DNA of 63,516 nucleotides, filler included, from Dugesia japonica (Eukaryota): NCBI GenBank assembly GCA_001938525.1. It is 5 parts of 5 records of this genome, joined end to end, with 100 filler letters (N's around TTAATTAATTAA, not from the genome) between each part and the next. Parts side by side here need not be neighbours in the genome. Positions count along the whole stretch, not along the records: positions 54,177 to 63,516 come from MQRL01530966.1; 4 more parts are not named here. The stretch is one strand, 5' to 3'. The notes below the pieces were generated by a model that was not told where the DNA came from, made no database searches, and was given only the letters and a program-made list of their open reading frames with translations. Made by a program: the position numbers and the translations under genes. Shown here one piece after another: positions 12,966-63,516 of this stretch; the stretch's first letter is position 1, and every line of letters starts with the position of its first letter.

Positions 12966-13182
12966 CAGAAGATTTTGAAAAAGTGACTAATTCAAACTAT
13001 TCCCTGCAAGACGAAGTTCAAAAGGCTATTCAAGAAGTATTAAACAAAAAGGCTTTTTTGCAAACAAGTCGCTCTTCAAATTCCATGAAACAGAATTTTG
13101 GAACATATAAAAGAACTAACAAGAATACAAACAAATTAAATAAAAATATTGAATTAAAACAATTAATGGAATATGATGGTCT

Positions 13183-19500: not shown

Positions 19501-22123
19501 TTTATCAATCGACGTTGAATATATCCAGTTTCTGCAGTCTTAACAGCTGTATCGATAATACCTTCTCTTCCTCCCATTGCGTGAAAATAAAACTCAGTAG
19601 GAGTAAGTCCTGCTAAATAAGAATTTTCAACAAATCCTCTTGATTCTGGCCCATAATCATTTTTTAAAAAATGTGGCAATGTTCTTTGCTGGAAACCGAA
19701 TGGAATTCGCTTACCTTCAACATTCTGCTGACCAACACATGCAATGACTTGAGCAATATTAATTTTAGAACCCTTTGCTCCTGAATTAACCATTAAATTG
19801 AAACTGTTGTACTTTGAAACCGAAGACTGTGCATTGCCTCCAGTTTCATCTCTAGCCTTATTTAGTATTTGGTTTACTTTTTCTTCAAATGTTTGCATAA
19901 CCGATCTTCCAGGATTACATTTTAGATTTTTAGCATGTCCTTCACTAATTGTGTCATAGACTTTTTCTTTCGCATTTGCAATGCAATTCTTAATATTTAC
20001 TTTTATTTCGGGTGTGTATAAGCAATCCACTATTCCAATAGAATGGCCTACAATTTCGAGCCAATTGTTAACGACAATTTGAACATTATTAAAAAAGCTT
20101 CCAACTACATCAGAATTGTGCTCTAACGCAATTATATGTATTAATGAACCTGAACTACTTCCTAATGATTTTTTACAAAGAATTCCAGATAGTAGTTCTC
20201 CATCTTCTATCAGAACCTTAGTGTCATAATATGTTATATACTTGTAAGGTCCTAAATCCTCTTTATCTGAGTGGGTACTATGAGTTCTAGTACAATTTAA
20301 ATGCTTAGGTATAATCAATGAAAACAGTTGCTTTCCTGTCCACAAAGGTTTTGGTTTCATAATACTAGGTTTTGGCATTATTCCGTCCCAAGATGGTAAA
20401 AACATTAATAAACGCATCATTTCTGCTCTGTCAAGTGTAACATCACGAAATGTAAGCTTATTACACGCCGTTAAAGAATCTTGTACAATACTCATAACTG
20501 GTTTATTACTTTGCGGTGTTATAACCAATTTAGTAACTCTAGCTAAATTTGCTACTTCTGCTCTAGTTTCTTGGGATTGTGGCAAATGTAAATTCATTTC
20601 ATCACCATCAAAATCAGCATTATATGGGGCTGTTACAGAAAGATTCAAACGAAATGTGGAAAATGGCAATACTTTGACGCGATGACACATCATGGACATT
20701 TTATGTAATGTTGGCTGTCTATTAAAAATTACGTAATCATCATCAATAATGTGTCTTTCAACTATTTCGCCATAATTTAAATTAATAGATGAACAATCTG
20801 GATGACGTTTTAAATCAATTCTGTCACCGTTTTCTTTGATAATATACTTAGCTCCAGGATATACTTTTCCATTCTTTACTAGTGTTTGAAGAAAACTTTT
20901 ATTAAATGGTGTTACCACTTCTGGAAAAGTCAGATTTTGTGCAATTGATTGTGGAACTCCAACTTGATCTAAATTTAGATTTGGATCAGCCGTTATTACA
21001 GTTCTTGCTGTATAATCAGTACGCTTTCCCATCAAGTTACTTCGAACTCTACCACTTTTCCCTTTCAATCTCTGTTTTAATGATTTAAGAGGTCTTCCTG
21101 ATTTTTGGATTGCAACAGGTAGAAATGTACTTTCATTATCTAAAAGTGTTGCTACATGATATTGTAGAAGATTTTCTTTTTCCAGTAATACTGCTGATAT
21201 TACTCCTTTTATTTCTGAAGATTTTATATCTTCATTTATTTTTACAATTTCTGTAAGTTTATGTGTTAAATCATCATGAGCTTTGCCGCTGTGATTCATT
21301 ACAATAGCTGGTCGAACTGCCATCGGCGGGACTGCAAGAACTGATAAAATCATCGATTCTGGCCTGGAATGATTTGGGCTAAATCCCAATAATAGACAAT
21401 CGCTATCAGAAATTCTTTTAAATATTTCATGAACTTGTGTTGCTCGTAATATTTGCGTGTTTGGTTCATTATTTTCACTTTCAAATGTTGCTGAATAATC
21501 CAAACCATTTCGTTTATATTTTTTTGGTTGAATAAAATTACAGCCTTCTTTGAAATCATGATTATTATTATCATTATTGTCCACATTTTCTTTATTTTCC
21601 AAATCATCAGAATTTGATGAAGCGCAAATTTTAATTTTTTTACAGTGTTCGTGAATCAATTCAAATCTCAATTTTAAATTGTTTTCAGTTTTTTTAACTA
21701 TTTCCTTTATTTTATGATTTTCGGGATCAATTAATATTCTCGAACATTTAAAACAAACCGATCTTAAAACTTTAATAATTTTTTCCTTAAAACCAATATG
21801 AAAAACAGGTCTCGCTAAATTTATATGACCAAAATGTCCCGGACATTCTGAAACATTTGAAAAACATGTTTGACAAATGGAATACTTATCAACTGGACCC
21901 TGTCTAGGATCCATTAAACCATTTCTTTTAGGAATACCGTTTACAGCCTTTTCTGGATATATGATGCCTTGGGAATCAAGTACCGACAGTTTTGTCTAAA
22001 AGAAAATGTTAGTTTATGTAATAAATAGGAATAAAATCAAACTATTTCCGAAGAGCTTAACATTCCAAACTCGACTCTAGAAATAGTCTTAAGAGGTATA
22101 AGAGCAGAACTTTTGTCATCCAT
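16551..22123 (-). CDS. RPB1: DNA-directed RNA polymerase II largest subunit; exon 1 22123-22043 (27 aa), intron 22042-21996 (47 nt), exon 2 21995-16551; ~1841 aa, with an N gap in the CTD
   Basis: NADFDGDEMN active site, CQTC..CPGHFGH zinc site, bridge helix TAVKTAETGYIQRRL, trigger loop QMTLNTFH, heptad CTD. Exon 1 MDDKSSALIPLKTISRVEFGMLSSSEI joins in phase 0 through a GT...ACTAAC...TAG intron to TKLSVL...GLMDPRQ. Confidence 0.98.
16590..17340 (-). repeat. RPB1 CTD 21-bp coding tandem repeat
   Basis: Near-identical TATTCTCCAACTAGTCCTGGA units (about 25 G7 heptads) followed by TATTCTCCAAGTTCTCCAAAC units (N7 heptads). Confidence 0.95.
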
Positions 22124-24462: not shown

Positions 24463-24812
24463 AATAAATGTATACATCTACTTGTAGTAACGAAAGGCAA
24501 AAGCAAAGTATGTAACATTATAACTTTGCCAATTATTACTTGAGTTGATTTAATATGAGGCAAAGAAATTACATTAGTGACATCATTAATGAAAATAATA
24601 TGGGCTATATATATATATATATATATATATAAATATATATAAGTAATGGGGTATTAACGTTTTCTTTTCAAGTTGATACTACCGTACCTCATGAAAAATG
24701 AAATATGTTAATGTAATATTTTAAATGAAATATGTTAATGAAATATTTTAAAATCCAACATGATTCAATGCAACATGAAACATGAAATATTTTTAAATTT
24801 ATTCTATAGAAA

Positions 24813-25436
24813 ATGAGTGATCAGAAAAAAGTTGTTCCACAAGAAAAAGTAATGAGTGAATTAACTTTAGTAACATTAATAAAATCAATACAAGATTTTG
24901 ATGCATCAGAAGAGTTGAATATTAATGAATTAAAAGAATATTTAAAAAATGATTTAACAAGAGAAACAGCAGAAGGTTATTTAAATTATCTTAATGATTT
25001 ATATGCTAAATTAGAAGAATTAAATTTAGTAGAAGAAAATAAAAAATTATTTAAAAATTTAATAACCACCATTGCCACAAAATATACAGAAAGTGATAGT
25101 CGTGGTTTATTACTTGAATTATTTAATAAAAGAATTGAAGATTATTTAAAAATTATTAAACAACAACAAGTAGATTTTCAAAAAGAAAGAGATCAACATA
25201 ATGCTGCTTTAATTAAATTAAAAGAAAAACCTAAACAAATTAAAGTTAAAGAAGTTGTATTTACAGTTCATCCTTTAGATATCACCAAGAAGAAGAGAAA
25301 TGTAACTGTTAAACGTTTTACTGAATTATATGATAATTTAAATCTAAGCAATCTTTCATTAGATAAATCAAAACGTGTTCAAGCTCAAGTAATTACTGGA
25401 TTTGATAAAGTATATGCTAAAAAAGAACCTAAATAA
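24813..25436 (+). CDS. Intact 207-aa orphan helical/coiled-coil protein, probably Polinton/adintovirus-encoded
   Basis: Uninterrupted ORF in very AT-rich DNA, AAAATG start context, co-directional with a capsid-like gene 460 bp downstream. Confidence 0.65.
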   Translation: MSDQKKVVPQEKVMSELTLVTLIKSIQDFDASEELNINELKEYLKNDLTRETAEGYLNYLNDLYAKLEELNLVEENKKLFKNLITTIATKYTESDSRGLLLELFNKRIEDYLKIIKQQQVDFQKERDQHNAALIKLKEKPKQIKVKEVVFTVHPLDITKKKRNVTVKRFTELYDNLNLSNLSLDKSKRVQAQVITGFDKVYAKKEPK

Positions 25437-25437
25437 A

Positions 25438-25800
25438 ATGGATTCAGTTTTAAATAAAATGTTAAGTGAATATAATTTTAAAGATAACTCTATGCAAGAT
25501 TTTTGTAAGGCTTATAATATAAATCAAAGAACTGTTAAAAAATATTTAAAGATGTGGAACATAGAATATAGTGTTAGATCTTGGAACCCATGTAGAAATT
25601 TACAAAGAAATTTACATGGTAGTTTTATTTCTGCAATTGAAAGATTTGAAAAAAAAAAAGTTACTAATGTTAAAAAAGTTACTGATGTTAAAATTCAAAG
25701 TGTTAGATTTGAAAATAAAAAAGTTACTGATGTTAGATGTGATTATGAAAAATTATTTATCGAAATGAATAAAGCAAAAAAGTATACAGTAATGAATTGA
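25438..25800 (+). CDS. Intact ~120-aa orphan protein with HTH-like N-terminus
   Basis: ATG lies 1 nt after the upstream stop (TAAAATG); SMQDFCKAYNINQRTVKKYLKMW resembles a helix-turn-helix; internal KKVT(N/D)V repeats. Confidence 0.55.
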   Translation: MDSVLNKMLSEYNFKDNSMQDFCKAYNINQRTVKKYLKMWNIEYSVRSWNPCRNLQRNLHGSFISAIERFEKKKVTNVKKVTDVKIQSVRFENKKVTDVRCDYEKLFIEMNKAKKYTVMN

Positions 25801-27469: not shown

Positions 27470-30025
27470 AGAACTGTGACACTCTTTCAGCCATTCAATT
27501 CATCTGTATTTCCTTTCATTTGGATACTCTAGTTCAACTTGATGATCCGTCGGGAAATCAAAGATCTTTACAGGACCTTCATATACATTGCCATCCTTTC
27601 GTTTCTTTTGTGGATCTATTTTTGCCAAAAGTTCCTGTCCCACTTCAAAAAATCTGTGCACCTTCTTCTTAACATCTTGACCTTTCATTCTTTCCGCTGA
27701 AATCTCAAGATTACTCCGTACCTTTGACAATACTTGTTCTTGATCCAATTTTATGTACGGATCTTTGCCAAGAATATTTACGAGGACTGTCTAAAAAGTT
27801 TTTAGCCCGACCAATTTCTAAACATATTTTTTATTTTTTGTCAACAGTTTATTAAAATTCATTCTTTATTTAGTATTAATAAATCGATTATTATATTTTT
27901 ATCATTTAAGTAATAGTATTATTTTTTTTTAGTAAATGACTTCGGATGAATTGAAAAATTTTGAAAAAGTTTTTTTTAAGGATTAAGCCCAAAAGAAATT
28001 TATGAAGACATGAGCAGATTATTAAATAAAACATGCCCGTCATATGCAACAGTGAAAAATTGGGTATCATCATTTGAGAGAGGCAAAACAAGCAACCAAT
28101 ATCAGCCAAGGTTCGGTCGACCAATTTCTGCATCAACTCAGGAGAACATTGAAAAGGTACACGAAATGATTCTTGAAAATCGTCGAATTTCAATCAGAAT
28201 TATTGCTGAGACCTTAAAACTATGCAAAGAACGTGTTGGTAAAATCATTCACGAAGATTTGGATATGAATAAGCTTTCTGCAAAATAGATCCCTAAATGC
28301 ATGAATTCTGATCAGAAGCAAAGACGAGTGCAGAGTTCAAAGGTGATTCTTTCATATTTGGCAAGGGATAAAAGTCAATCTATTAATCAAATTTTTACCG
28401 TCGATGAAACATGGTTACATTCCTTTGATCCTGAAACCAAGCAACAATCCATGGATTGGAAGCATTCCAGATCGCCCCAAACCAAAAACTTCCAAAGATA
28501 AAAGTCTGCAGGAAAAGTCTTAGCATTGTTTTCTGGGATTGCAAAGGCATTGTGATGATAGACTTTATAGAAAAAGGCTCAACAATAAATTCTGATTATT
28601 ATTCATTTTTATTGGTCAAAGTTAAAGAAAAATTTAAACAAAAACGACCTGAAAAGTTAAGAAATGGTATTCAATTTCTGCAGGACAGTGAACCTGAACA
28701 TATTGTCTTACAGACATTGAATATAATTCAAGATATTGGTTTCCAAGTTTTTTTTTGTAAAAATCTGATTTATTTTTACAAATTTTTTATAAAAGTACTT
28801 AACGGTTTGAATAAAAGTACTTATAGATTTGAATATCCCTGTAAACTAATCACCTAGCTAAATGGATCGATTATTACAACCATATATCGATTACTGCTTC
28901 TGCTTTCCTTCATATGCGCAATATCTATCACGATTTGATCCATAGGGTTCATAACCTTTCTTGGTATTAAATATTCGGCTGTCTTTAATTATAGTGTCTT
29001 CCTTCTCATATACAACTCACATTTTTTTATAATCGACTTTGTATCTGTTACCACGTTTATCCAAAAGAATTGACTACCAATATAATTTATAGTTTTCTTA
29101 ACACATAGGGTCCAATTTCTTTATGCATATGTACCACAAACCTCTCGACAAGCTTATGCGGAATGCTTATCTTCCGTTTATTTTCACTTTATATTAATAA
29201 AAACATTTCTTTCAACAGTATACTATCTAATTTATGGAAATACACAGAATGTTTTATCAACTTTGGTACTATCAAAGAAGGGTTCATAATAAAATTTTTA
29301 ATCGCTTCCAAAACAGAATCCTCAGCTTGAGCGGAACGATACGTTTCAATATTAAATTCTTCAAACAAAATTGCATTTAAAAATCTTACTCTGTTCTTCT
29401 CTTTTATCCCTTCTTCGTGTTCACTTTGACATTGAGAGCAATAGCTCAATAATATTCTGGATAATCCGTCTGCATTGTTATGGTTTTCACCCTTCCAATA
29501 TTTTAGATCAAAATCAGCGCCAGATAATTCACTTAACCATGTATGAAATTGTGGACTTATTGATTTTTTGTGGACTTCAAAATTGTAAGTGCTTTGTGAT
29601 CTGTACGGATATCAAATTTCTTACCGTATAAGTATTGCTTGAAGTAATATATAGCCAGTAACGCCTTCCGTGTCACACAATGACTTTTCTCATGAGCACT
29701 TAAAAGCCTTGATCCATTTGCGATAACCTTTTCACATCCATCTTGTACCTGACTAAGAACAGCACCAATACCGCTAAAACATACATCTGTGTCTAAAATA
29801 AAATAATCATATTTGTTTGGGAATGCCAATACTGGAGTATTTTATAAAGAATGTTTGAGTTTCTGGAAACTTTCTTGACACTCTTTATTTCATTATATGT
29901 CTTTCACATGTCCATTAGTAGCCTCGTATAATGGTTGGGCAATTTGAGCAAAGTTAAAAACAAATTTAGTGTAGTAATTTGCCAAACTAAGAAATGACCG
30001 TAATTGTTTGGTGCACTTTGGAATT
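27470..30025 (-). mobile_element. Gypsy pol fragment (RT thumb, RNase H, integrase) interrupted by a mariner
   Basis: FILDTDVCFSGIGAVLSQ..IRTDHKAL (29557-29829); integrase C-term YEGP motif (27500-27748). Confidence 0.85.
27781..28750 (+). mobile_element. Mariner transposon, 3'-truncated, transposase pseudogene ~27990-28750
   Basis: TA then TIR-like CGAGGACTGTCTAAAAAGT; PSYATVKNW, GRP, KLSAK*IP (WVP), TVDETWLHSFDPETKQQS, VFWDCKG; no YSPDL or right TIR seen. Confidence 0.92.
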
Positions 30026-33989: not shown

Positions 33990-34818
33990 TGATGCTACTC
34001 TCTTAGCCTTCGTTGATTCTTTTTCATTAAGGAAAATATAATATTTTGATCTCAGAAAAACTCATTTCTTGTATTTCTTGCCATTATTCTCATCCTTGAA
34101 TTTACTTACTATCGAGTTCCAGTTGTTATTGTAAAGTGAATGATTTTATCTTTATTTTGATGTGTTCAAAAGATTATCTCGCACCGTTAATCTTAGTAAT
34201 TTTTCTATCTTAATGTTTTTAATTTCTACGAAAAAGCTATTTGTATCTCCAGCTACTATGTTTATTGTGCAACTCTCTTTGTGATATTTTTTGTGTCCAA
34301 TGTACTGCAACTAGTACATTCTTAGCTTTGACAGGTCCAACACTGCTTGAACAATGTAACTAGGTTTGTGCAAACAAATTGTACCTTTATTCAGTTAAAC
34401 TGCAATTATATATTCATCTTTCTTCATTTTTTTCCTGAAAGTTGACTTTGATGAATAAGTCATCAGCTTTTTCACTGAACTACAAAATTCTAAAGTTGAA
34501 CTTCGTCTTAATTTTTTTCAACTGATTATCCGTAAGGGTGGTTATTCATTGTAATTTTTATCTAAATCCGATTGACTTTGCGATCTCAACTAAGTATTAC
34601 TATCAATATATTTTTTACAAATTATCTTGAGTAAATTTTACAGCTCTGAAGATTTTTGAAATCTGAACACTTAATTGTAAGTATAATTGTAATAGCATTC
34701 AGTGTACTACATAGTTTATTTTTGAACCTTGGGGCTTTGATGTTTAGCTGTTACAGGAAAGTCATTTAAATAAGGGTAAAGTTTCTTAGGTATTTCAATA
34801 TCTACTTCTAATACATAT
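33990..34818 (-). pseudogene. Polinton-type pPolB C-terminal fragment
   Basis: YVLEVDIEIP, LHKPSYIVQAVLDLSKLRMY, IVAGDTNSFFVE, VFLRSKYY..KAKRV; homologous to 13183-14190 and 50250-52467. Confidence 0.85.
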
Positions 34819-36831: not shown

Positions 36832-37792
36832 NNNNNNNNNNNNNNNNNNNNNNNNNNNNNNNNNNNNNNNNNNNNTTAATTAATTAANNNNNNNNNNNNN
36901 NNNNNNNNNNNNNNNNNNNNNNNNNNNNNNNAAATTAAGAAAATAAATTAAGGCTAATTTTTTAAAATTTTTATTAAGTGTAAAAACTATTCAAAAATGT
37001 TTTATTTTTCTCAAATGTTCGATTTTATTTTCTAAGGAGTTGCGACTTTTTTATTTTATTTTAATGTAAATAAAGATGTTTTTCAAATTAAATTTTTTTA
37101 TCCTGATTTTGATGGGATAATATTATTAAAAATTATAATAATTTCTGGTTTAAATGTTTGACTAAAATTTCTTTGTGTTTTTTTCTATGGAGTGCTGATA
37201 TATAATGGGAATTTCATATTTTCAATTTTATAATATTGTAGTCAGCATGAATATTGTGATCGTGTATGAAATGTTTCTAGAGTTTACTCTCCTTCTCTTT
37301 GATATGTTCTTTGATTCTAGTTCAGTTTGTTCTAAGGGCTTCGACTATACATGATTTATTACATATGGTACAAATAATTTCATAAATTACATTTTTATTG
37401 TACNNNNNNNNNNNNNNNNNNNNNNNNNNNNNNNNNNNNNNNNNNNNNNNNNNNNNNNNNNNNNNNNNNNNNNNNNNNNNNNNNNNNNNNNNNNNNNNNN
37501 NNNNNNNNNNNNNTTTTTAAAAAACTTTTACCAGAAAAGATTTTAGTAATTAAGGCAAGTATGTAAAAAAGGAAAATATTAACAGTCCCATAATTAAAAT
37601 ATTGTAAATAATAAAACATGAAAATTTTAGAAATTAATGAAGACTAGAATTAACTGAATAATTGAAAAATTGGCTTTTATAAATAGAATACAGAGAAATA
37701 AAGAAATTAAAGGGAATTATTTTTAATAATTTATTTCATTACACGTGGTTATCTTTTGTTATTAAATGACAACATTAATCATTTTTCTTTGC

Positions 37793-42820: not shown

Positions 42821-43018
42821 CTAAATATTTAATAAATTTCTCATTTGTAGAACATTTTGTTTATGTTGATGATTTTCTACATGATCTTCAAGATCCGCTT
42901 CTGTATACAATGGCACGCCGAGTCTTGATTTCTCAGTCATATAATCACTGTTCTGTGTGCAGAGTTCACATATTTTCACTTCTGGCAGAACATCACGACT
43001 CAGTTTAACACGAGACAT
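42821..43018 (-). CDS. 65-aa single C2H2 (U1/matrin-like) zinc-finger protein
   Basis: CELC...YTEADLEDHVENHQHKQN; intact ORF with ATG; AATAAA downstream. Confidence 0.55.
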   Translation of the reverse strand: MSRVKLSRDVLPEVKICELCTQNSDYMTEKSRLGVPLYTEADLEDHVENHQHKQNVLQMRNLLNI

Positions 43019-43782
43019 TGGCCTATATATTAGTGATTGATTAATTATGACAATTTACTAATTTTCAAAAAAATAAACATGAAGGAATATTCTCACAAGT
43101 GAAGAAAGATTTGGAAATCAATATTGTTTGTGATAATTACAAAAAAGGCCCTTCTAATAAAATTGTATTAGATCAACCCTTTATAGGGCAGATTTTAATT
43201 ATTTTGGAATTTTAATGTCAACATGACACTTTAGAATACTCATTGCCCGCATAGAATGAATTCAATAGAAACACTAAGAATATTTCTTTATTATATTTCT
43301 TTATTATGTATTATAACGTATTCAAGTTTACATTTCTATGAGCGCTATTGAAAATATAGACCTTAAAGCGATTGGTTAATATTGTGAGTATGTTTTGAAA
43401 AGCGAATTGAAATTTTTGTTCTTTGGTTGGAAATCATTTTCTTAAAATCTTCTTTAAAAATTGAAAATAGGAAATTAAATAAGAAAGTAGAGTTAATTAA
43501 ATTAAAAACTTTGTACAAAAATTATGGATATTTAAATTGAATAATAAATGACAATTTTATTTAAAATTCGGAAAAATTTTAAGTGAAAATTTTATCTAAA
43601 ATTTTAATAAATTGAAAAATGATTTCCAATTAAAACATAGTTTGAGTAAACAAATAATGATGGATATAGTTTTGTTTTGTGAATAAATCTTTTATAGAAA
43701 CTAATCTTGGCATTAATTAGCAGATGAGTACGCCAAACTCATCTAACAAATATATTAACCACTTTCAGTCATTGTCCTATAA

Positions 43783-43957
43783 AAGGGTTAAGACAGTAAT
43801 TTACAAATTGGAAAGCACGGGCTTCGGCGAAAAAAGGCGTGAAATTTTTAATTTAAATGTAATTCGAAAATGTAATTCTAGATAAAAAAATAAATACGAT
43901 AAACAAATTCGACCTATTAATATTAAATATAACGTAAAAATATAACCCGTATATATA
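43783..43957. repeat. ~175-bp direct repeat, copy 1 (copy 2 at 44315-44490)
   Basis: Both copies run AAGGGTTAAGAC..AAATTGGAAAGCAC..GGCTTCGGCGAAA..GGCGTGAAATTT..CTATTAATATTAAATATAACGT..CGTATATATA; roughly 85% identical by eye. Confidence 0.92.
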
Positions 43958-44314
43958 GAACTAAATTTAAGGCTGTTGTTGCTCTTGGTGATAACAATGG
44001 ACATGTTGAATTAGGAGTAAAATGCGCCAAAGAAGTTGCGACTGCCATTAGAGGAGCAATTACTCAAGCTAAATTCCCTGTTATTCCCGTCAGAAAAGGT
44101 TACTGGGTAACAAATTGGTAATAGTACCATGCAAAGTTACTGGAAAATGTGGATCGGTAAGTGTAAGACGTATTCCAGCTCCAAGAGGTACTGGTATGGT
44201 TGGTGCACCCGTAACAAAAAAGCTTTTAAGCATGGCGGGTATTCAAGATGTCTACAGTAGTGCTAATGAACAAACAGCCACTTTGCAAAATGTCGCTGAA
44301 GCAACTTATATGGC
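43957..44314 (+). pseudogene. RPS2: 40S ribosomal protein S2 (uS5) internal fragment, frameshifted
   Basis: [42 protein letters not shown] / [38 protein letters not shown]; lacks both termini; no intron in the fragment. Confidence 0.93.
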
Positions 44315-45000
44315 AAGGGTTAAGACTGTAATTTCCAAATTGGAAAGCACAGGTGGCTTCGGCGAAAGAAGGCGTGAAATTTATAATAGAAATGTAATTT
44401 TAATAAAACTTCTAAATAAAAAAATAAGTACGATAAACTAATTCAATCTATTAATATTAAATATAACGTTAAGATATAATGCGTATATATATATATATAT
44501 ATAATTCATCTTGGGCTTTGTATATTATGTTCAATTTTTTAGATAATGACAAATACCATCTATCTTCATCATATAAAATTACAATATCGTCATTGGTTAA
44601 TGGTACACACTAATTTCTCCTTATATTTTGTTTAATTATCCTATTGAATTTTCCTTTTCATAAGTCTAAGTAATTGTAAAAATACTATTGTCTGAAAATA
44701 AAAGTAATGTGTTTTAATTAACTAGATTGAGACAGCAGTTTCATTGATTACGACAAAAGATTTAGAAGGTTGGCTAAAATTGATGGGGCGTGATTGTGCT
44801 TTAGCTATATAGATTGTCAGGTTTTCCATAAATAAAGCTACTCAGTAAAAATTCTACTTTTTATTTCATTTAAAAATCTGAAACGAATTTAAAAAATTCG
44901 AAAATGATTTATAAATACTAAATGTTTAATTGAATTATAACAAATGAAACGGAAATTCCTAAAAATTTAGAAATTTTTTTAAATAGTAATAAAAGTAATA

Positions 45001-45160
45001 TTTTTTGTTTTTGATAATAATTCTAATTTTCGACTTTTTCTTCGTCAGGAATTGACTTTTTCTGATTTGACTGGAGAAAAAAGTCAATTCTTGACGAAGA
45101 CAAAGTCAAAAATTAGATTTATTATCGAAAACAAAAAAATTGATCAAAGCTTTTATTTTA
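45001..45160. mobile_element. Inverted pair of ~90-bp hammerhead-bearing repeats (Penelope-like pLTR remnant)
   Basis: Minus-strand copy 45003-45059 and plus-strand copy 45081-45160 of AAGTCAATTCCTGACGAAGACAAAGTCGAAAATTAGAATT..., separated by a short spacer. Confidence 0.7.
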
Positions 45161-45761
45161 TACTGTTATTCCAAAATACAAACTTTTTTATTCCAAAATA
45201 TAAACTTTTTGACTATGAAAAATATATTTTAGTAATGAATGATAAAATTTTAGATAGGAAATAAATAATTAAAAAATTTACATAAATTCTTTTAATCACG
45301 TCCTTATATGGAATATTCAAATAATAAAAAGTTAAGAAATACAGTATTCGATGAAAATCTTAGAATTATTAATAGAAAACTGGTGCCATAAAAAACTGCA
45401 TTAAAAATTCAATAGAAATCTCATTTTTAAGACGTTTCCTTTAGGTGAGTCATATTTTTATTCATATATCAGAAATTTTTTGAGAAAAGTATTTGGTAGA
45501 AAAAAGATAGTTTCTGTATTTAACAAAAACCAATTAATTTAAACTGCAATTTTCAATAGAATTGCAGAATTACACATTAANNNNNNNNNNNNNNNNNNNN
45601 NNNNNNNNNNNNNNNNNNNNNNNNTTAATTAATTAANNNNNNNNNNNNNNNNNNNNNNNNNNNNNNNNNNNNNNNNNNNNTATATATATATATATATAAC
45701 AAAGAAGAAAGTAAATCACAGCCAGATTATGATCGCGAAGTCTGAGTTGAATTGTCTATCA

Positions 45762-47200
45762 TCAACGTTTCAATGTCAGGACATCAGCAACCAGTTTATT
45801 CTCTCGGTCATGGAGGGACCGGATGATTTCCGCGAAAGACTCTAACTGCTGCTTCCAGAGGCGTTCTTGTGCATGCGATGCCTCGGCCTCTTTACGGAAC
45901 ATGAGATATTTATGTTTNGCGATGCCTCGGCCTCTTTACGGAACATGAGACATTTATGTTTGTATCGCTTTGCCTTGCTCTCCGCGGCAGCTGTGTTGGC
46001 CTCCCAGCGGCGTTTAGCTAATCAATAAACATCCCAACTTATTTCTATATCTTTGCTATTCTCTTTAACTTTTTTGGTTGGAGCGACAGAGCGAATTAGA
46101 GAGGAATTCACTCGAAAAGAAAATTAATTTATCATTTAATTAATGAAGTGATAGCAAATTTAAATAAGATTTATTACGAGGGATCAATAATTTATATGAG
46201 ACTTATTTTTTAAACAAGAATCTAGCCAAATAACACGATTGAAACGATCTATTAAAAGGGGATACTGCATTTAGGACCAAGAAATTTTATTATTATTACA
46301 AAAGAGAATCACTCAGGAATATTGTTTAGAGTTTGAGTCTCACTATCCGTGGGCGGCTCGGTATTTTCCTCACTACCGCCACTTGCCGTACTTCAAACAC
46401 TCCATAATATGTCACTAATCAATCCACCTAACCCTACGGGGTTGAGGAGCAGGAGGCGTATTTCCCCTCCAAACTCGCTGATAGATTGGCATGCCATTCT
46501 CGTAGCGGGTAGATATAGTCATTGCGAAGAGCGTACTACGACCGTAGTCCGTGCCAGTCTAGTCGTAATACGCTTGGTAATCAGTTGCACCCATGTGTCG
46601 CTCCTCATATGCGACCCTTGCGGGCAAGTTGAACCGCTCTACCAGGACGCCCGCGTCTCGATTGTACAGGTTTACATATCGTTTAAAAACTATGCGGCCG
46701 GTAGCCTTGTCCTCACATTTAAGTTCCACTAAATTACATGGGTCTTTATAACTTAAAATGAAAATCAATGTAATAAAAAGGTATGCAAACAAAAGAGAAC
46801 AGATTGGCAGGTACAAAACCACTTGATTACTATTTATTTTAATAAAGACATAATCAATCAATAAGAGTATCGTTAATTTTGCTAAAATTCTTGGTGAATA
46901 TCCACACCGTAGTTCAATGGGAACATCTCGACAAAACACTACAAATCGGTTTCAACGGGATACTCCACCAGTTCTGGGAACAACAGGTGACCTATGAGCT
47001 GTTTGTGACGCGCTGCTTTCTCCTGTTTTAGGATCAAACGAAGTGTATTCCTTAACTCTGCCGGCATCACCTAAAGGTAATAAAATTTTCATACTGTCGA
47101 AGGTCAATATTTTAATAAGAATATTCTCAGCTTGATTCCACACTCGTCGCATCGATTCGAGATTGATTGCTAAACATTTGCGACGGGGGCCTCTGTCACT
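45762..47200 (-). pseudogene. Cluster of GC-richer decayed orphan ORFs (probably mobile-element accessory genes)
   Basis: ~46115-45762: ISWDVY*LAKRRWEANTAAAESKAKRYKHKCLMFRKEAEASHAQERLWKQQL...; ~46750-46415: LVELKCEDKATGRIVFKRYVNLY...YYD*TGTDYGRS...RWID*; 47152-46952. Confidence 0.4.
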
Positions 47201-49229
47201 CTAGTAGCGGATTAATTGTTAGGTTTTGTTGAGTTAAAGAACCACAGCGTTATATCCCCTACAATAAACACGAGTTGGCATTTTCTGACCCGTAACCACG
47301 AAGGATAATACAAATAAATTAACATTAACTTGTAAATGTAACTTACGCCATATTATAGTTTTGGTAATTATAAAACGAGGATAATACCGTGGATAAAAAC
47401 TACATGGTTTATAGGCTTGATAATGATAAATCAACAAAGATTGAAGGAAAGTGGTGTACTAGTGCGGATAGCGTACATCTAGCGTGATGGCAACCCTAGT
47501 CATGATAACAACGATACTGATCAGATAATGATAACAAGAATAGTAGCATCCTAAGTAAGGTACTGATAAATAAGACAAAAATTAGTACTCGTAATAATAT
47601 CATTACTAGTCCCCTTGATAATCATGATGCATACTAATGGAGATATTATTCGTAGTAATAGAAGCAGCAATAGCCATCAATGGTAGTTATAATCGGTATA
47701 AATGATATTAATAATTGAAAATAATAAAAATCACCTAACTCTGGGATGACTCAGCAACTCATCTCACCGCAACTCTTAAACACACTAACTCTTTATGTGT
47801 ATGTGAGTAATGTGATAAATTCGAATTATCGATTGATATATACAAGGAAACATTTTGGCTAGATAGAGAATTGTTTCTACAGTTGGTGTGACACTTAATT
47901 TGTGGTGTATTGTGACGAACTAATTATCAAGAGTGTAGATAAAAAAACAAATTGATCCTGCCATTATTTGTAATAGAAAAAACATCGAGCCATTAGTGAG
48001 GATACAACGGTGTGTAAAATTGGTTACTTTGAAGTAGCCTATGTTGATTAAGTTTCCATTCATGAATAATATAAATTTCAATAATTTTTATTGTTTATTT
48101 AAAACATAAATAGATATCCATAACATAATGAATACAGATACAGCACTTACTATTAAGTTTTCAGAAAAGAATTTCTGCAACGGGTTTCTGCTGATTTCTG
48201 GTAAATATCGCAAGGTATTCCTAATTCACTGGTAGGGAAGGTTTCCTTCTTTAATTTTAAATTAACCGAAATAAATATCGGGAATATTACTTTCAAATTC
48301 TTGTTCAATTGCAAAGGTGATTAACCTAGTGAAAATTTTCCGAGTAAGTTCCACACAGTTAATTTAGTGAACAGGTTGTAGTTTTGATCAGCTGTAATCG
48401 TAATCACATGTAAATTATTAATCGTGGTGATAGCTGGGAATAATTAAAAATTGGGTTTTTTCATCTAAAATTTGGGGGGTTTAAATAGAATTTTTCTGAC
48501 AACCCGATTTTTTTCGTATTGGTGGTCTATTTTTGTTTCAAATTTCTGAATTTCTATTGGTGGTGGTGCCAATTTTTCGATTTTTTTAAGAATTCTTGGT
48601 TTTTTATTGGTGCCTATTTCTAGAGCACCTTGTGATTTTTGTTTCGTTATTTCACGTTTATTTTCTGGCCTCTCATTGGCCTATTCTTCAAACCCTTCCG
48701 TAGACCCTCCTGATAATGTTANNNNNNNNNNNNNNNAAAATTCAATTGCCCTGTTACTTTTTCTTTCTGAATTTTCTTATTAGGATTCCTTGCGATCTTC
48801 CAGAGTGAAGATATCTCCCAAAAACAACTTTTTGCTTAATTTACTTTCTTTTTTCAACTAAAATTAATTAATTTTCTCCCATATTTTTTATTTAATTAAT
48901 ATAATGTTTTTCTTGTTTTTTACCCTCATGATATAATTTTCTTTAATTGACTATTTTATTACGGGTTTAAATAATGAACTAATTCTTCCTTGAATATTAT
49001 TTTATTAAAAATCTTTTTTTTTAATCTCATTTTTCATTATTTAATAATCATTACTAATGGACTAACAAATACCACTGATGACCTCACTTATCATTCCTTA
49101 TTCTTCTTTGATCGCCCATATTGGGGCCCCTGAGTAAACTTCATTTCACTCTTCAGTGTTTCACCCCATTATTTATATTTTTGATAATAATAATAATAAT
49201 AATTTTTGATAATAATAATAATAATATTT

Positions 49230-50249: not shown

Positions 50250-52467
50250 TAAGTTGCTTTATATTCAATGAAATTGGTAAACCACTACACAAATGAGACT
50301 AAATATATTGAATTTATAGGCAATGAATGTGTTTTCGAATTTTTAAAAGAAGTGGAGAATATTACTTATAATGTAGTATGTCTTTACTATTTGGAACATG
50401 GGAATAAGAAAGTGATAGTAACTCCTGCACAAGAAATTGAATTTCTGCGACTAGCATATGTTATTTATGTATAAAATCAATAGTTCAATCAGTTTGTCAN
50501 NNNNNNNNNNNNNNNNNNNNNNNNNNNNNNNNNNNNNNNNNNNNNNNNNNNNNNNNNNNNNNNNNNNNNNNNNNNNNNNNNNNNNCATAATCTCAAAGAA
50601 TATGATCTACATCCTACTCTCAACTATAGACTCAGTAGATTTTCAAATTAGGCAATTAAATGTATACCTACAACCAAAGAGAAATTTCTCTCTCATGGTT
50701 AATCAAAAGAAATCAGCAACCATCAGATGTATTGATTATTATCAATTTATCAGCTAATGGTTAGATGTAGCTGCAAAATCAATAAAAGCAACTCCGTTAA
50801 CAACAAAGGAGTTTAATGATAGCCGGATAATAACATCAAAGAATATATTTCCATATAATTTTCCCACCAGGTTGGAAATATTAGAAGAAACAACAACCAT
50901 GCCATCGAGATGGAATGGAGTGAGTGAAGAATCATACACGAAAGCATTGGAAATGTGTGAAATTATCAGATGTAATAACTTGTTGGATTATATGAAAGTA
51001 TATTTAAAGTTGAATGTCTTTTTGTTGGCTGACTTTTTTTAACAATTTCGACAAAATTCGTTAAAAAATTATAGATTAGAACGATTGAATTTCTTTGGTA
51101 TCCCAGGGATGAGTTGGGCATCTGCCTGATGACACTTGTTGAGCCTATACAATTATTAACAGATAATGACATATTCACATTTTTTGAAGTAGGAATCAGA
51201 GGAGGAATCACTTTTGTCAATAAATATCATGTTAAATCTGATGAAAATACAGGGCTTTTGTATATTGATAAAAATAATTTGTATGGGTGGGCATTAAGTC
51301 AAAAGTTACCAAATAAAGATTTTGTGTGGATACATTCAGGGTTGAATGAAATATTAGAAGATTGTAGAAGAATGGAATGGGATTCGTTGACATATGGATA
51401 TGTATTAGAGGTGAATATATTAATTCCCAATGAGTTACATAATTAGTTGAGTGATCTATCGGTAGCAGCTGAACATCCAAACCCTCCTGATAGTAAAGGG
51501 AAGAAATTACTCTTAACAAATTACCCGAAGAAGAATTATGTAGTTTACTGGAGGCTGCTGCCGATGTACTTGTATTTAGGACATATATACAAGTCAGGCT
51601 AATATATTAATATATGTACTAATATACTAATATACTATATATTAGTCAGGCTAATATATTTAGCAAATACAGAGATATGAACACAGAGCTAAGATCACAC
51701 CGTAAAACCNAATTGGAGAAGAACTACTACAAGCTATTAAATTATAGTCTATATGAGAAAAGTGTAGAAAATTTAAAGAAAAGAATTAACCTGAGGATTT
51801 GTAATTCTGCAGAAAAGTTGATTACTTACTCTTCAAAAAAGTTTTAGAAGTACAATAAAAATGTTCAACTCAACAAAGAGGTTATATGTTTGGATCGACC
51901 CAGCTACATTGGACAAACTGTACTTGATCTGAGTAAATTAAGAATGCATCAGCTCCAATACATTGAGGGTGAAAAGTGTCGAAGAGATGAGAAATGTGTG
52001 ATAAATATAGTAGCTGGTGATACGGATAGTTTCTTTTTAGAGGTTAATGATATTAAACTGGACAAATTTTTGTAGTTGATCGTAAGAGACAGATTATTGG
52101 ACACATCGAACTATAGCAAAAGAAACCCTCTTTACAACATGGATCTGAATTTGGTAGTTGGTAAGTTTAAAGATGAAAGTAAAGGTGAAAGATATATAGA
52201 ATGGATATTCCTGAGGCCAAATTTTTATAGTCTACTCAAGGAAAATCTAGCATGAAAGATACAGACATAACACATCAGTCATATCTTGATTGCTACAATG
52301 AAAATAAGAGATTGTTAGTTAATAAATTTATAATAAGGACTAAAAATCATCAGTTTTATAGTTTCATGAGTTCAAAATTAGCTCTTACAAATAATGACGA
52401 CAAAAGAGTGTGGATATATAAGAACACAAGCAAACCATATGGACACCACACATTACACACCACATAG
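50250..52467 (+). pseudogene. Polinton/adintovirus pPolB, longest fragment (exonuclease to C-terminus), degraded
   Basis: HNLKEYDLH (Exo II), IFPYNF, GIRGGITFVN, YIDKNNLYGWALSQKLP, YYKLLNYSLY, IVAGDTDSFF, LDTSNY, GKFKDE, LTNNDDKR..KPYGH. Confidence 0.93.
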
Positions 52468-59817: not shown

Positions 59818-60837
59818 GTTATTAATATTAATTTAATTTAAGCACTTATTAATTATTGATTTTAAAACTAATTTGAATTTTTGCTAATTGACGGTAGTTA
59901 TATTTTATTGTTTTCTGTAAATTCCTCAATTAAACATTACTATAAAATGATAACAAAATTGATAAATTAAAAAATATTTGTTCTAGTACTCGAAAATGCC
60001 TTTTATTTTTTTTTATAATAAATGGTATTTTACTGTAATCTGGTATTACTTATAACAAGAGTGATTAATCCTTTAAGAAAATCGTACAAAAAATTGAGAA
60101 ACGATATTTAAGTGTGCGACATTATATATTTATTAGAATACAAATGAAAGAAAACCATTTTGAAAATTTTAAATAAAATTTCTATTATTTCTAATTTGAA
60201 AACTTTGGTGTTTTACTCAAATTATCCTTTTTTTCAAAATTCGAAATCTTGGAACAAGAAAAAAATAAACGGCACATATAAATTTCTATTAATTGGTTTT
60301 ATAATTTTTTATTTGAGAAGTTTCATTATTGTAATATTTAATTTCGAAAATGAACACTTATAAATTGAATTAAAACCATAGTTAGTTTTCATTGTGGAGA
60401 ACAATTTAAAGACTAATATTAATTTTTTGGAAAAGGAAGATAGAAATGACTTGGTATGTTTAAATACTACATTTATATACAATTGCTATCGAAATCAGTT
60501 CTGAATTATTACTTTACAATAATGATGTTAGATTATCTAATTTCAAAAAATTATATTTGTGGGAAAGATTCATTTCATTGTATCCAATGTATAATAGTTT
60601 AAAAAGAAAGGATATTGCTTAAGCATAAAATTATGAATATCCAAATCTTATAATTAAATAGTAATAAGAGGGAAGGCAAGAAGATCCATGAGTAGATTTA
60701 TCATTTATTGCTGAAAATGCTTGAATTTAGAACTAAAATATTTTATTTTTGTCTTCAATAGATACTGTTGATTTTGTAATTTTACTCTTTTATTACAATA
60801 CTGAATTTCCAATGACTCATTTCTAAATGGCTACAGT

Positions 60838-61086
60838 CAGCCTCTGATTTACAAAGAAGCTTAGACCCCCACTTGATTAAATGTAGTTAAGCAATTTAGA
60901 CATTTTATAAAAAGAACAAAAAACATTGATCGGTGATTAAATATAATAGGTTAATATTTATGTCTTTTTAAATATGCTTTTTCTGATTTCTCCGTTCATC
61001 AACGTTTTGCACTCACATACAAAATCGTACAAATGTGACTCCATAACTATTTTCTTAGGGCTTCACTGATCTTAAATCCGGGTCTG
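60838..61086. mobile_element. hAT MITE, 249 bp
   Basis: Perfect 8-bp TSD GCTACAGT (60830-37, 61087-94); imperfect TIRs CAGCCTCTGATTTA / TAAATCCGGGTCTG. Confidence 0.85.
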
Positions 61087-61212
61087 GCTACAGTATTTAT
61101 GAACACATTTCTGTTGGATTTATTTTCATATTTTCAGTGTCCATTTTTGCAACAAACTTTAATATATTTTTCATGGATTGTTGCATTGTTAAAAGTTTAA
61201 GTCAAATTCCTG

Positions 61213-61305
61213 AAGTCAATTCCTGACGAAGACAAATTAGAAAATTAGAATTATTATCGAAAACAAACAAAACAAATTTTGATCGAAGCTTTTATTTTAA
61301 TGAAC
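61213..61305 (+). repeat. Hammerhead-bearing ~90-bp repeat copy (stem II disrupted)
   Basis: AAGTCAATTCCTGACGAAGACAAATTAGAAAATTAGAATTATTATCG...TTGATCGAAGCTTTTATTT. Confidence 0.75.
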
Positions 61306-61599
61306 ATTATATTTATTTTGTCAAGTAACTCATCACTAGGCATCTTTAAGGGTTAATTCTTTGTATTTTTTATTTTATTTAAATTCAGATATATTAAGCA
61401 TTTTCTGAAGCGTAAACAGATGATTGGCACATGAAATATTAATTTTTAAATTCAATCTATATTGATACTACTAAGATAATTTTCTAAACTAAATTGTTGG
61501 AAGTTTTAAGTGAATAAATTTATTTGTGTTCGTTTTACGTATTTGTTTTACATTTTATTTAGAAACGCTGCGATTAATATTAATTTTAACATTTTAATT

Positions 61600-62100
61600 C
61601 CGAAATTTCATAAATATCATACTTCGTTCAATGCAATAAAACTGAAATTACTCGTAATAAAAGTATATACGGCGAGATTTCTGTAAGTACTCAAACAGTG
61701 CAGCATAGGTTTAAGGAATTTTGTGTAAAATCACTGAAAAATAAAACTCATGAAAATCCTCAAACCAAAATTGATAATGAAATTTTGAAGACCTTGATAA
61801 AAATAGTGTTGTGTTTCATGAAGCCAAATTTGATTGAATTAATATAAATTTATTGGATTTCATAAGAAATCACCGTAAATAATTTCTGGGGTAAATAGGA
61901 ACGCGCAATAAAAGAATATTGTACGTATAATCATAAGAAATCAGCTAAATGACTAAATAAGAATAACATGCAACAAAACCTTTTAAACATACACAAAAGT
62001 TACTGTGTACAATTTGGTGGAATAAAAAAAGTGTAGTTGATTATTTCGTCCTACCTCGTGGCGAAAGAATAATTACAGAAAATCAAATATATTAGAAATT
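61600..62100 (+). mobile_element. Highly degraded mariner transposase remnant
   Basis: TEITRNKSIYGEISVSTQTVQHRFKEF..PQTKIDNEILK; YNHKKSAK*LNK; QKLLCTIWWNKKSVVDYFVLPRGERII. Confidence 0.72.
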
Positions 62101-62754
62101 CGTGAAAAATTAAAAAAAAGTTGATAAATATTTTATAATATACTTATATATAAAAAATTTATTTTTAAATATTACAATTAGTATCGGTGGTACCAGTAAA
62201 GAGCCTCCAATCTTAGAAAAACATTTTTTACTATTTATGAAACGAGAGAATTGTAAAACTTAATTGAGTAAAACTTATACTATATTTATAAATATTATTC
62301 GGTTTTATTGTGGTTTTTCTTTAGCAAAAATCGAGGCAATATAAAATAAACTGTGAATTTGTATTATATTAGTGCTTAAGTTCTTTCGAAAATATTTACC
62401 ATGAATATTAATTTAATTTAATATCAATTTTTCACAATTAATTAACAGATTTTTTTATTGTCTTTTGTTTATATTTTCTTTTACCATGTATTGCTGAAAT
62501 TGAAAATGTTAATATGTGTAAATTTTTCTGGCTTAATAAATAAATTGGTTGTAATTAATTTTCCATTTATTCTATAAAAACATTCAATATTTGGAAGTTA
62601 ATCTTCGTTTAAATTTGAAATCAAGAATAATTTATTTAGATTAAAATATTTTTTTCTATTTTTATTTGGGAAAATGTGAATATAAAGGTTTATTTTATAA
62701 GTAGTTTTATTGATATAAATATATATATAAACTATATGTATATATACAAAAAGT

Positions 62755-62791
62755 CAATTCCTGACGAAGACAAAGTCGAAATATAGAATTG
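62755..62791 (+). ncRNA. Minimal type I hammerhead ribozyme (within repeat 62751-62845)
   Basis: Stem I CAATTC/GAATTG; CTGACGA(A); stem II GAC-AAA-GTC; GAAA; palindromic ATAT in place of stem III; UH site, predicted cleavage after 62785. Confidence 0.7.
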
Positions 62792-63516
62792 TTATCAAAA
62801 ACCAAAAAAACTAATTTTGATCGAAGCCTTTATTTCAAATGAATATACATATATATTAAAATAATGTTTTATCAGTAGACAATAAAATCGACTCGGTTAT
62901 TGTCCCACATTTGTAACGTTTGATAAAAATGTCTTTACAATAGCCAAAAGTGCGCATCCGTTATGCAGGACATCTAGTTTTATGACATACAACCAGGTAA
63001 ATAAATATGGCTCACATAAGTGGAATCCACTGTACCTGAATGAATGATATTTTAGAAATTAAAGTGCGTAATTTATATTTTCGATTGTGCTTCTAATATT
63101 TTCAGACAAATTAAAGCGAAAGAAATATGGCTTAATTAACTGATCAACTGTCAAAAACTTATGAATAAAATTTAATTCTTTTCTAAAGTCATTTGAGCAA
63201 CATTTCTAGTGATTACTTTTAGTATTTTCTATTTCATAATGACGTAGCACGGAAAAATATGACCAGCGTACAGAAAAATCTGTGCATCTTTGAATTAAAG
63301 GAACAATATTGTCATTATTTCTATTGAAAATGTAAATAAAAATGCAATAAAATTGATAAATATGAATGAATATTAATAAATATCAAATAAATAAAATTTA
63401 TCACAGTATTATTTTAAATTTACCACTATTCGAAGGTATCATCAAGATTTAGTATTTGATTCGAATTATCCATACAATTATTATAAAATGTGAAAAATTT
63501 GTGATTTTTAATAAAA

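What the first reader, a model, noticed from the sequence alone, without database searches (positions are those of the whole stretch)
62751..62845. Dispersed ~90-bp repeat family encoding a minimal hammerhead ribozyme
Seen: four copies (45003-45059 minus, 45081-45160, 61213-61305, 62751-62845). The last has the full type I layout: CAATTC-CTGACGA-A-GAC aaa GTC-GAAA-TA-TA-GAATTG. Stem III is reduced to a 4-nt palindrome, ATAT here and AATT in the other three, so self-complementarity is kept despite the sequence change. Known: Penelope-like retroelements carry minimal type I hammerheads with palindromic stem III in their pLTRs, proposed to cleave as dimers. Inference: this is the self-cleaving end of a Penelope-like or retrozyme-like family, probably abundant, with no RT in this window. 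The other three copies have core or stem II damage.
Basis: partly seen in the sequence, partly recalled or inferred. Interest (0 to 1): 0.78.

Follow-up and report, generated by a model that had tools for sequence, protein, structure and literature searches.

The report
Penelope-type hammerhead repeat in a flatworm
This short, very abundant DNA repeat encodes a minimal self-cutting RNA of the kind that Penelope-like jumping genes carry at their ends, so it is a new example of a known class, and its cutting activity is inferred from sequence, not measured.

Summary
Four copies of a ~95-bp repeat are in the window, and only 62751-62845 has an intact minimal type I hammerhead (predicted cut after 62785). 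Its RPB1 gene suggests a flatworm host. In three contig sets of the same organism, 13,129-14,154 pieces lie on the element and almost none on its flanks, so there are thousands of copies or more. Family variation fits a hammerhead: the cleavage base is A, C or U, with G under 4%; the two inner stem III bases change together and keep the palindrome; 1 of 27 constrained positions varies at 4% or more. Beyond the ribozyme it looks like a Penelope-like (PLE) end: a head-to-head pair with the 3' extension on one copy only, and apparently two 3' ends ~34 nt apart. The same hammerhead layout lies beside PLE reverse transcriptase in metagenome loci. The window also holds a PLE endonuclease remnant followed by a weak look-alike of the element (suggestive only). 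No tandem array, RNA cut ends or autonomous partner was shown. Dispersed solo hammerheads of this kind are already described in many animals: a new member of a known kind.

The parts
62749..62844 (+). Best-preserved copy of the ~95-bp element
   Evidence: Summed contig depth rises from 0 to over 1.3 million at about 62748 and falls to about 10 after about 62844-62853 in three runs
62755..62791 (+). Minimal type I hammerhead: stem I (5 conserved bp plus one non-conserved pair), CUGACGA, extra A, 3-bp stem II, GAAA, 4-nt palindromic stem III
   Evidence: Sequence, descriptor and resampling control, fold, family variation
62785..62786 (+). Predicted cleavage site, after nucleotide 17 (62785)
   Evidence: Inferred from standard hammerhead numbering; 62785 is C in 41-43% and U in 4-4.5% of depth, G not listed at the 4% threshold; no RNA ends seen there
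62794..62821 (+). Weak stem-loop with an A/C-rich loop, the candidate upstream reverse-transcription start region
   Evidence: Predicted (only -1.8 kcal/mol for the 3' half; not predicted in the 45081 copy); many contigs stop matching at 62810; role inferred by analogy to PMC11167929
62811..62844 (+). Optional ~34-nt 3' extension (candidate PLE 'tail')
   Evidence: Present in the 62751, 61213 and (in part) 45081 copies, largely absent from the minus copy; loose ends at 62810 in 176-192 contigs per run with low agreement, 0.50-0.53
62742..62748 (+). Candidate 7-bp target-site duplication, left copy (right copy 62843-62849), in a TA-rich tract
   Evidence: weak because the surroundings are low-complexity; none found at the other insertions
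61213..61305 (+). Full-length copy with stem II destroyed; 61200-61212 looks like a partial duplicate of its 5' end
45078..45160 (+). Right member of the head-to-head pair; core damaged (C3, G12), 7-nt deletion, keeps most of the 3' extension
44991..45061 (-). Left member of the head-to-head pair; core intact, stem II 2 bp, ends 25-35 nt short of the full 3' end
   Evidence: the pair folds into one long hairpin, z -13.8
37136..37402 (-). Decayed GIY-YIG endonuclease of a Penelope-like element (three internal stops; an assembly gap lies directly upstream)
   Evidence: Found with a PLE profile (iE 5.5e-4); best relative P0242 at 53% identity, E 8.8e-17, which has RVT_1 and GIY-YIG domains
36970..37052 (-). 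Possible fifth, heavily decayed copy of the element 80-90 nt downstream of the endonuclease remnant, same strand; catalytic core not intact
   Evidence: Hammerhead part scores above all 1078 control windows and 1000 shuffles with flat scoring, but 4 of 1078 reach it with composition-aware scoring; whole element 17 and 15 of 1078; missed by nhmmer. Suggestive only

Best explanation
The repeat is the terminal unit (pseudo-LTR with its minimal hammerhead, plus an optional ~34-nt tail) of a Penelope-like retroelement, scattered as solo copies by that element's reverse transcriptase and GIY-YIG endonuclease. Shown: repeat, high copy number, hammerhead layout, hammerhead-compatible variation, head-to-head pair with the extension on one side. 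Inferred: in the source element's RNA the hammerhead cuts after 62785, and because a 4-nt palindrome cannot close on itself it needs a second copy or the element's protein to do so. Inferred mechanism for the solos: the endonuclease nicks AT-rich DNA, reverse transcription starts inside an uncut transcript at one of two sites (in the A/C-rich loop near 62810 or at about 62844) and runs to a fixed 5' end a few bases before stem I, perhaps the transcript start. That would give short copies with a whole ribozyme, one 5' end and two 3' ends. Most genomic solos, including three of the four here, are dead. Whether the template is the 5' end of a full-length element or a short non-autonomous master is not resolved.
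For: Family variation in three runs, one of them (X5) from a study not flagged as a possible source of this DNA: 62785 A>C 41-43%, A>T 4-4.5%, G not listed; 62782 T>A 9.6-9.9% with 62783 A>T 9.2-9.7%, against 0.2% for the palindrome-breaking A>G; loop 2 A>G 37-41%. 1 of 27 constrained positions against 3 of 8 free hammerhead positions carry a variant at 4% or more (Fisher p 0.03). The extra base after A9, G10.1-C11.1 and palindromic 15.2-16.2 are the features Cervera and de la Pena list for metazoan PLE hammerheads; they also report mostly single copies and opposite-strand pairs (PMC4209133). Inverted pLTRs with a 30-40-bp tail on one side are typical of PLEs (PMC3846280; PMC8557442). Internal priming at two sites in an AC-rich stem-loop, protein-assisted cleavage and insertion from uncut RNA were shown for an Anolis PLE (PMC11167929). 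A pattern fixing only the core, stem II, stem III and one stem I pair gave 6 metagenome loci; 5 of 6 have a 4-bp stem I, and 2 of 6 (L003, L005) carry a PLE-type RT (profile score about 840), L003 as a 5221-bp tandem unit. The genome has PLEs: endonuclease remnant at 37136-37402, followed by a weak look-alike of the element.
Against: No intact copy was found joined to a PLE ORF; no genome is held. The look-alike after the endonuclease is borderline (4 of 1078 and 15 of 1078 control windows reach it under composition-aware scoring; nhmmer misses it) and was spotted by eye. The remnant's full-length relatives have the DKT motif of the Hydra clade (3 of 3), whose listed canonical hammerheads have longer stem III with a loop, unlike this one (PMC8557442 File S2). 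Constrained positions are not significantly more conserved than the 3' half (1 of 27 against 7 of 53, p 0.26), and pieces were only counted if 80% alike, which favours a conserved core. G12 is A in 5.5-6% of depth. Loose-end groups show stem I 3'-strand variants (after 62781 and 62789) with no partner change visible at 4%. The palindrome swap may be a single ancestral event. Loose ends at 62810 could also be A-tract indels. In RNA run X24 about 23 reads cover the element, in both directions, about 20 span the cut site, and no place with many starts or ends is listed. The metagenome hammerheads share layout, not flanking sequence, and probably stand for two or three families only.
Confidence: 0.77

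Rival explanations
1. Dispersed monomers of a non-LTR retrozyme: tandem units elsewhere are cut to unit length, circularised and reverse-transcribed.
For: Retrozyme families can be largely monomeric, with consensus lengths down to 51 bp, and are proposed to derive from PLE pLTRs (bioRxiv 10.64898/2026.07.22.740005). A palindromic stem III suits tandem dimers (PMC4209133).
Against: No tandem array of the unit in the window. Of the 4 joints listed none goes back to the element's start (9 further joints in X5 were dropped by the tool at a repeat). Very low RNA cover, whereas retrozymes are described as highly expressed and carry canonical rather than minimal hammerheads (PMC7229834 passages).
Confidence: 0.1
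2. A SINE-like element with its own promoter, like the Schistosoma hammerhead SINEs, moved by a LINE or other RT.
For: Fixed 5' end, short length, very high copy number.
Against: No Pol III A-box (1 mismatch allowed) or B-box match inside any copy (motifs recalled); no tRNA; no poly(A) or simple-repeat tail; head-to-head pair with one-sided extension is a PLE trait.
Confidence: 0.07
3. A repeat of another kind (for example a decayed DNA element) whose hammerhead look is chance or no longer relevant.
For: Longer contexts do not fold as a hammerhead and are no more stable than shuffles; Rfam models do not score it; a G12 variant reaches 6%.
Against: 0 strict matches in 300 resampled windows; cleavage-base and palindrome variation follow hammerhead rules; single copies have no terminal inverted repeats; same layout beside PLE RT elsewhere.
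Confidence: 0.06

Closest known systems
Minimal hammerheads of metazoan Penelope-like elements (Cervera and de la Pena 2014, PMC4209133)
   Same: Type I, extra base after A9, G10.1-C11.1, palindromic positions 15.2-16.2 with no loop, A/U-rich flanks, thousands of mostly single copies, opposite-strand pairs.
   Different: Stem II of only 3 bp with a 3-nt loop (most listed examples have 4-8 bp); this sequence is not among the representatives in supplementary Figure S3, and the Schmidtea example there is a different family with a 5-bp stem II. No attached ORF shown.
Poseidon element PAc of Anolis carolinensis (Frangieh et al. 2024, PMC11167929)
   Same: Hammerhead followed by an AC-rich stem-loop; two 3' ends about 30-40 nt apart; AT-rich targets; no RNA ends found at the cut site in public reads.
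   Different: In PAc the ORF starts inside the hammerhead and priming is 111-118 nt into the ORF; here the element has no ORF and the hairpin is weak and its role only inferred.
Hydra-clade PLEs (Craig et al. 2021, PMC8557442)
   Same: The endonuclease remnant's full-length relatives have the DKT motif, and P0242 has a CxCX5C linker; (TA)n targets fit the 62751 site.
   Different: Hydra-clade hammerheads in File S2 have a longer stem III with a loop; the remnant and P0242 appear to keep Cys/His residues that the paper says are absent; no flatworm is in the paper's Hydra table. Clade not settled, and the link to this repeat is only suggestive.
Non-LTR retrozymes (PMC7229834; bioRxiv 10.64898/2026.07.22.740005)
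   Same: Short non-coding repeat with a type I hammerhead, probably PLE-related.
   Different: No tandem organisation seen, minimal rather than canonical hammerhead, near-absent RNA in the one raw run laid.
PLE-type elements in metagenome loci L003 and L005
   Same: Same core, extra A, 3-bp stem II and 4-nt palindrome; three stem I pairs differ on both sides and still pair.
   Different: Unrelated flanks, 47-48% GC, 6-nt loop 2, full elements with an upstream ORF and an RT with the DKG motif.

Membership tests
Hammerhead ribozyme, minimal type I | CUGANGA and GAAA core with U16.1 and H17 around a three-way junction, open at stem I | tested here: met
   62751 copy; H17 is A, C or U in the family
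Hammerhead ribozyme, minimal type I | Stems I and II form; G10.1-C11.1; one extra base after A9 | tested here: met
   Pair probabilities 0.78-0.96 in the 37-nt core; longer contexts misfold
Hammerhead ribozyme, minimal type I | Palindromic positions 15.1-16.1 allowing a dimer | tested here: met
   Both palindromes seen; coordinated change at 62782/62783
Hammerhead ribozyme, minimal type I | Core more conserved than unconstrained sequence across copies | tested here: inconclusive
   p 0.03 against free hammerhead positions, p 0.26 against the 3' half; ascertainment favours the core
Hammerhead ribozyme, minimal type I | Self-cleavage after position 17 | not testable with these tools
   About 23 RNA reads, no end pile-up: too few to judge
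Hammerhead ribozyme, Rfam families | Score at or above a family's gathering threshold | tested here: not met
   Best 13.3 bits against 56.3; none in the whole window
Penelope-like element terminus (pLTR) | Lies directly downstream of, or flanks, an RT + GIY-YIG ORF | tested here: inconclusive
   No PLE ORF beside the four clear copies; a borderline decayed copy follows an endonuclease remnant
Penelope-like element terminus (pLTR) | Head-to-head inverted copy, with tail on one side only | tested here: met
   44991-45160; one case in the window
Penelope-like element terminus (pLTR) | Optional 30-40-bp tail, two 3' ends | tested here: inconclusive
   Ends near 62810 and 62844; the first could partly reflect A-tract indels
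Penelope-like element terminus (pLTR) | AT-rich or (TA)n targets, variable target-site duplication | tested here: inconclusive
   One 7-bp candidate at 1 of 3 insertion sites, in low-complexity DNA; the genome is 17-37% GC throughout
Non-LTR retrozyme | Head-to-tail tandem units each with a hammerhead | tested here: not met
   None in the window; no go-back joint listed; short contigs could hide arrays
Non-LTR retrozyme | Abundant circular RNA | not testable with these tools
   One raw RNA run of unknown selection, about 6% read, about 23 reads
tRNA-derived SINE with hammerhead | Internal Pol III A and B boxes | tested here: not met
   No match inside the copies (motifs recalled); no tRNA

The most novel reading that the evidence does not exclude
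The family is a self-propagating, promoter-less ~95-nt non-autonomous element, a 'ribozyme SINE' made of little more than a hammerhead and a priming hairpin. It never occurs in tandem yet keeps a cleavage-competent core and palindrome, which would mean selection for cutting between separate RNA molecules or with protein help, and its fixed 5' end would mark a transcript start reached by internal priming. In a flatworm with good genetics this would make the open question of what PLE hammerheads do in vivo directly testable.
Probability: 0.2. Interest if true: 0.65.

Novelty: new member of a known kind. Interest (0 to 1): 0.36.

Why it matters
It adds a very abundant, very compact (37-nt) hammerhead family that Rfam models miss, and it shows that family-wide variation in public contigs can test ribozyme constraint without a genome. 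What PLE hammerheads do in vivo is still open: cleavage was dispensable for insertion in vitro and was protein-assisted in the one element studied (PMC11167929). A family with thousands of copies, a fixed 5' end and two 3' ends is a convenient natural read-out of internal priming. The class itself, including dispersed solos and opposite-strand pairs, was described in 2014, so a specialist would not be surprised.

Tried and rejected
Exact-family pattern in metagenome contigs: 0; relaxed pattern in viral contigs: 0. Rfam: no hammerhead at useful score; the mir-1256 hit at 45040-45100 is only the inverted pair. Pfam on 93 of the 103 stop-to-stop frames of 68 aa or more (RPB1-region frames left out) and on six frames of 59900-63516 and 43000-47500 read through with X: no PLE domain beside the copies. 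tblastn with one PLE RT: nothing; only a profile found the endonuclease remnant. nhmmer with the four copies found no fifth copy. The swapped-stem dimer cannot be scored by ViennaRNA, so dimer stability was not computed. The pair counts compare two unrelated groups and stand for very few events; I do not count them as statistical support. No RNA holder was listed among indexed runs; that blank is no evidence on expression. Summed depth was not taken as copy number: the crude ratio is 137,000-194,000, or 2,200-6,200 after allowing up to 31-fold overlap of short contigs and a haploid flank (word length of the contigs recalled). L002 was kept in the count of 6 loci and judged a chance match (1-bp stem I, bacterial-looking genes). 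Earlier-findings look-ups returned nothing. Lunse et al. (PMC5785218), the largest catalogue of such dimers, is not held and may already list this family. Seven paper searches showed no paper describing this family; Repbase and Dfam could not be checked.

Full report
Observation. The four copies are real. BLASTN of 62701-62900 against the window finds 61213-61317 (+), 45061-44991 (-) and 45078-45158 (+) at E 3e-28 to 5e-19, and they align over about 60-95 nt with one shared 5' start. The 62751 copy reads as a type I hammerhead: stem I 62755-60/62786-91, CUGACGA 62761-67, an extra A, a 3-bp stem II with a 3-nt loop, GAAA 62778-81, a 4-nt palindrome 62781-84 and cleavage base 62785. A descriptor finds only this copy in the window; 300 resampled windows gave 0.1 loose, 0.017 palindromic and 0 strict matches per window. 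Stems I and II are the preferred fold of the 37-nt core (probability 0.58), but longer contexts fold otherwise and no better than shuffles. Rfam does not recognise it.

Host and surroundings. The window is 17-37% GC, with an intronless RPB1 gene at 16551-21995 whose four best named relatives are all flatworms, at 56-57% identity. I infer a flatworm, possibly a free-living one; the species was not determined. The rest is decayed mobile DNA: gypsy-type RT/RNase H pieces and mariner remnants. So the window does hold RT remnants, but no PLE RT. No whole genome is held.

Abundance and ends. I laid three contig sets and one raw RNA run of the same organism on 62620-63000 (X1 and X3 may be the source of this DNA, X5 is not so flagged). 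13,129, 14,154 and 14,154 pieces were laid. Summed depth is 1.3-1.7 million at 62763-62775 against 8-10 in the flank, rising at about 62748 and gone by 62854. This is not a copy number; crude bounds are about 2,200 to 194,000, and 4 copies in 63.5 kb point the same way. A second 3' end is suggested by 176-192 contigs per run that stop matching at 62810 with mixed flanks (agreement 0.50-0.53), though A-tract indels could contribute. The tool skipped 62702-62746, which may hide loose ends at the 5' edge; the fixed 5' end therefore rests on the four window copies and on the listed pieces, nearly all starting at 62747-62755.

Constraint. Across the three sets the cleavage base is C in 41-43% and U in 4-4.5% of depth, and G is not listed at the 4% threshold, as the hammerhead NUH rule requires (rule from established knowledge). 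62782 T>A (9.6-9.9%) and 62783 A>T (9.2-9.7%) move together and keep the palindrome, while the breaking change A>G is 0.2%. The AATT share is probably underestimated, because such pieces are clipped against an ATAT reference. Loop 2 varies (37-41%), and so does the outer stem I base (54%), so the conserved stem I is 5 bp. One of 27 constrained positions (G12, 5.5-6%) against 3 of 8 free hammerhead positions has a variant at 4% or more (p 0.03), but against the 3' half (7 of 53) the contrast is not significant (p 0.26), and the 80% likeness filter favours a conserved core. Two loose-end groups show stem I 3'-strand variants whose partners I cannot see.

RNA. In run X24 (about 6% read) roughly 23 reads cover the element, in both directions, about 20 across the cut site, with no place where many molecules start or end. 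That is too little to test cleavage, and the same blank was reported for the Anolis element (PMC11167929).

Link to Penelope-like elements. First, layout: Cervera and de la Pena name the extra base after A9, G10.1-C11.1 and palindromic 15.2-16.2 as marks of metazoan PLE hammerheads, and report mostly single copies and close opposite-strand pairs (PMC4209133; main text parts 1-2 of 4, supplement parts 1-2 of 3). Second, the 45-kb pair is head-to-head with the 3' extension on one copy only, as described for inverted pLTRs (PMC3846280 passages; PMC8557442 passages). Third, an A/C-rich stem-loop follows the ribozyme (62794-62821; weak), where the Anolis element starts reverse transcription at two sites that define the tail (PMC11167929, parts 1-2 of 4). 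Fourth, a relaxed pattern gave 6 metagenome loci: 5 have a 4-bp stem I that the pattern did not require, and L003 and L005 carry a PLE-type RT, L003 as a 5221-bp tandem; they are probably two or three families and are not homologous in their flanks. Fifth, a profile of 22 PLE proteins found an endonuclease remnant at 37136-37402 (minus), whose best relative (53% identity, E 8.8e-17) has RT and GIY-YIG domains. About 80-90 nt downstream, on the same strand, lies a decayed look-alike of the element's first 45 nt (37052-37011). It outscored all 1078 control windows and 1000 shuffles with flat scoring, but 4 of 1078 reach it with composition-aware scoring and 15 of 1078 for the whole element, and nhmmer missed it. 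Against the link, the remnant's long relatives have the Hydra-clade DKT motif, and canonical Hydra-clade hammerheads have a longer, looped stem III (PMC8557442 section 11 and File S2). I treat it as suggestive.

Mechanism. Most likely the element is the pLTR-plus-tail of a PLE. In the source RNA the ribozyme would cut after 62785 only as a dimer or with protein help (inferred from PMC4209133, PMC11167929 and review passages in PMC6765202). The solos contain the whole uncut ribozyme, so they were copied from uncut RNA. Priming inside the transcript at about 62810 or 62844 and running to a fixed 5' end would produce exactly this shape (inference). The template could be the front end of a full-length element or a short non-autonomous master; the several high-frequency variants show more than one source lineage but do not decide between them.

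Rivals. Retrozyme monomers: possible in principle (bioRxiv 10.64898/2026.07.22.740005, parts 1-3 of 5), but no tandem unit was seen. Pol III SINE: no A or B box (motifs recalled) and no tRNA. Chance: disfavoured.

Novelty. The class is known, down to dispersed solos and inverted pairs. This sequence is not among the representatives I saw in the Cervera supplement, its core was not found by text search of the Craig supplement, and seven searches showed no description. Lunse et al. (PMC5785218) could not be read, bioRxiv supplements are closed, and repeat libraries were not available, so it may already be catalogued. I also saw passages only of PMC6431247, PMC7229834 and PMC6515669. Verdict: a real, abundant, PLE-type minimal hammerhead family; new member of a known kind; interest 0.36.

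Noticed in passing
window 43783-44504: A ribosomal protein S2/S5 gene fragment (about 43950-44315, broken) sits between two 190-bp direct repeats, 84% alike, each ending in a TA run and holding a short GC-rich hairpin. It looks like a gene piece captured between two copies of a small mobile element.
   Followed up: partly
window 16551-21995 (-): Intronless RPB1 with a C-terminal repeat mostly YSPTSPG rather than YSPTSPS; only 57% identical to its best named relatives over residues 1-450, 70% to one unnamed protein.
   Followed up: partly
window 37136-37402 (-): PLE endonuclease remnant whose long relatives have Hydra-clade-like DKT and CxCX5C motifs; no flatworm is in the Hydra table of PMC8557442, so the clade's range may be wider.
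   Followed up: partly
L003 1-6137; L005: Two-ORF PLE-type elements in metagenome contigs: a 617-aa upstream ORF, a 644-aa RT ORF without an attached GIY-YIG domain, about 1.35 kb of non-coding DNA, then the hammerhead; 5221-bp tandem unit.
   Followed up: partly
window 13171-14190, 50990-52245 and 34021-34400: Mutually similar decayed stretches (64-69% identity); the ORF at 51075-51446 resembles a protein-primed DNA polymerase B of Polinton-like elements (recalled resemblance; no Pfam hit).
   Followed up: no
window 61650-62050 (+) and 27980-28854 (+): Mariner-type transposase remnants; one lies between the 61213 and 62751 copies.
   Followed up: no
window 62778 (family-wide): The catalytic G12 is A in 5.5-6% of family depth, and several listed pieces share a 7-8-nt deletion like the 45081 copy: possibly an amplified subfamily that cannot cleave.
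   Followed up: no
window 24810-25800 (+): Two adjacent ORFs of 208 and 135 aa with no Pfam match.
   Followed up: no
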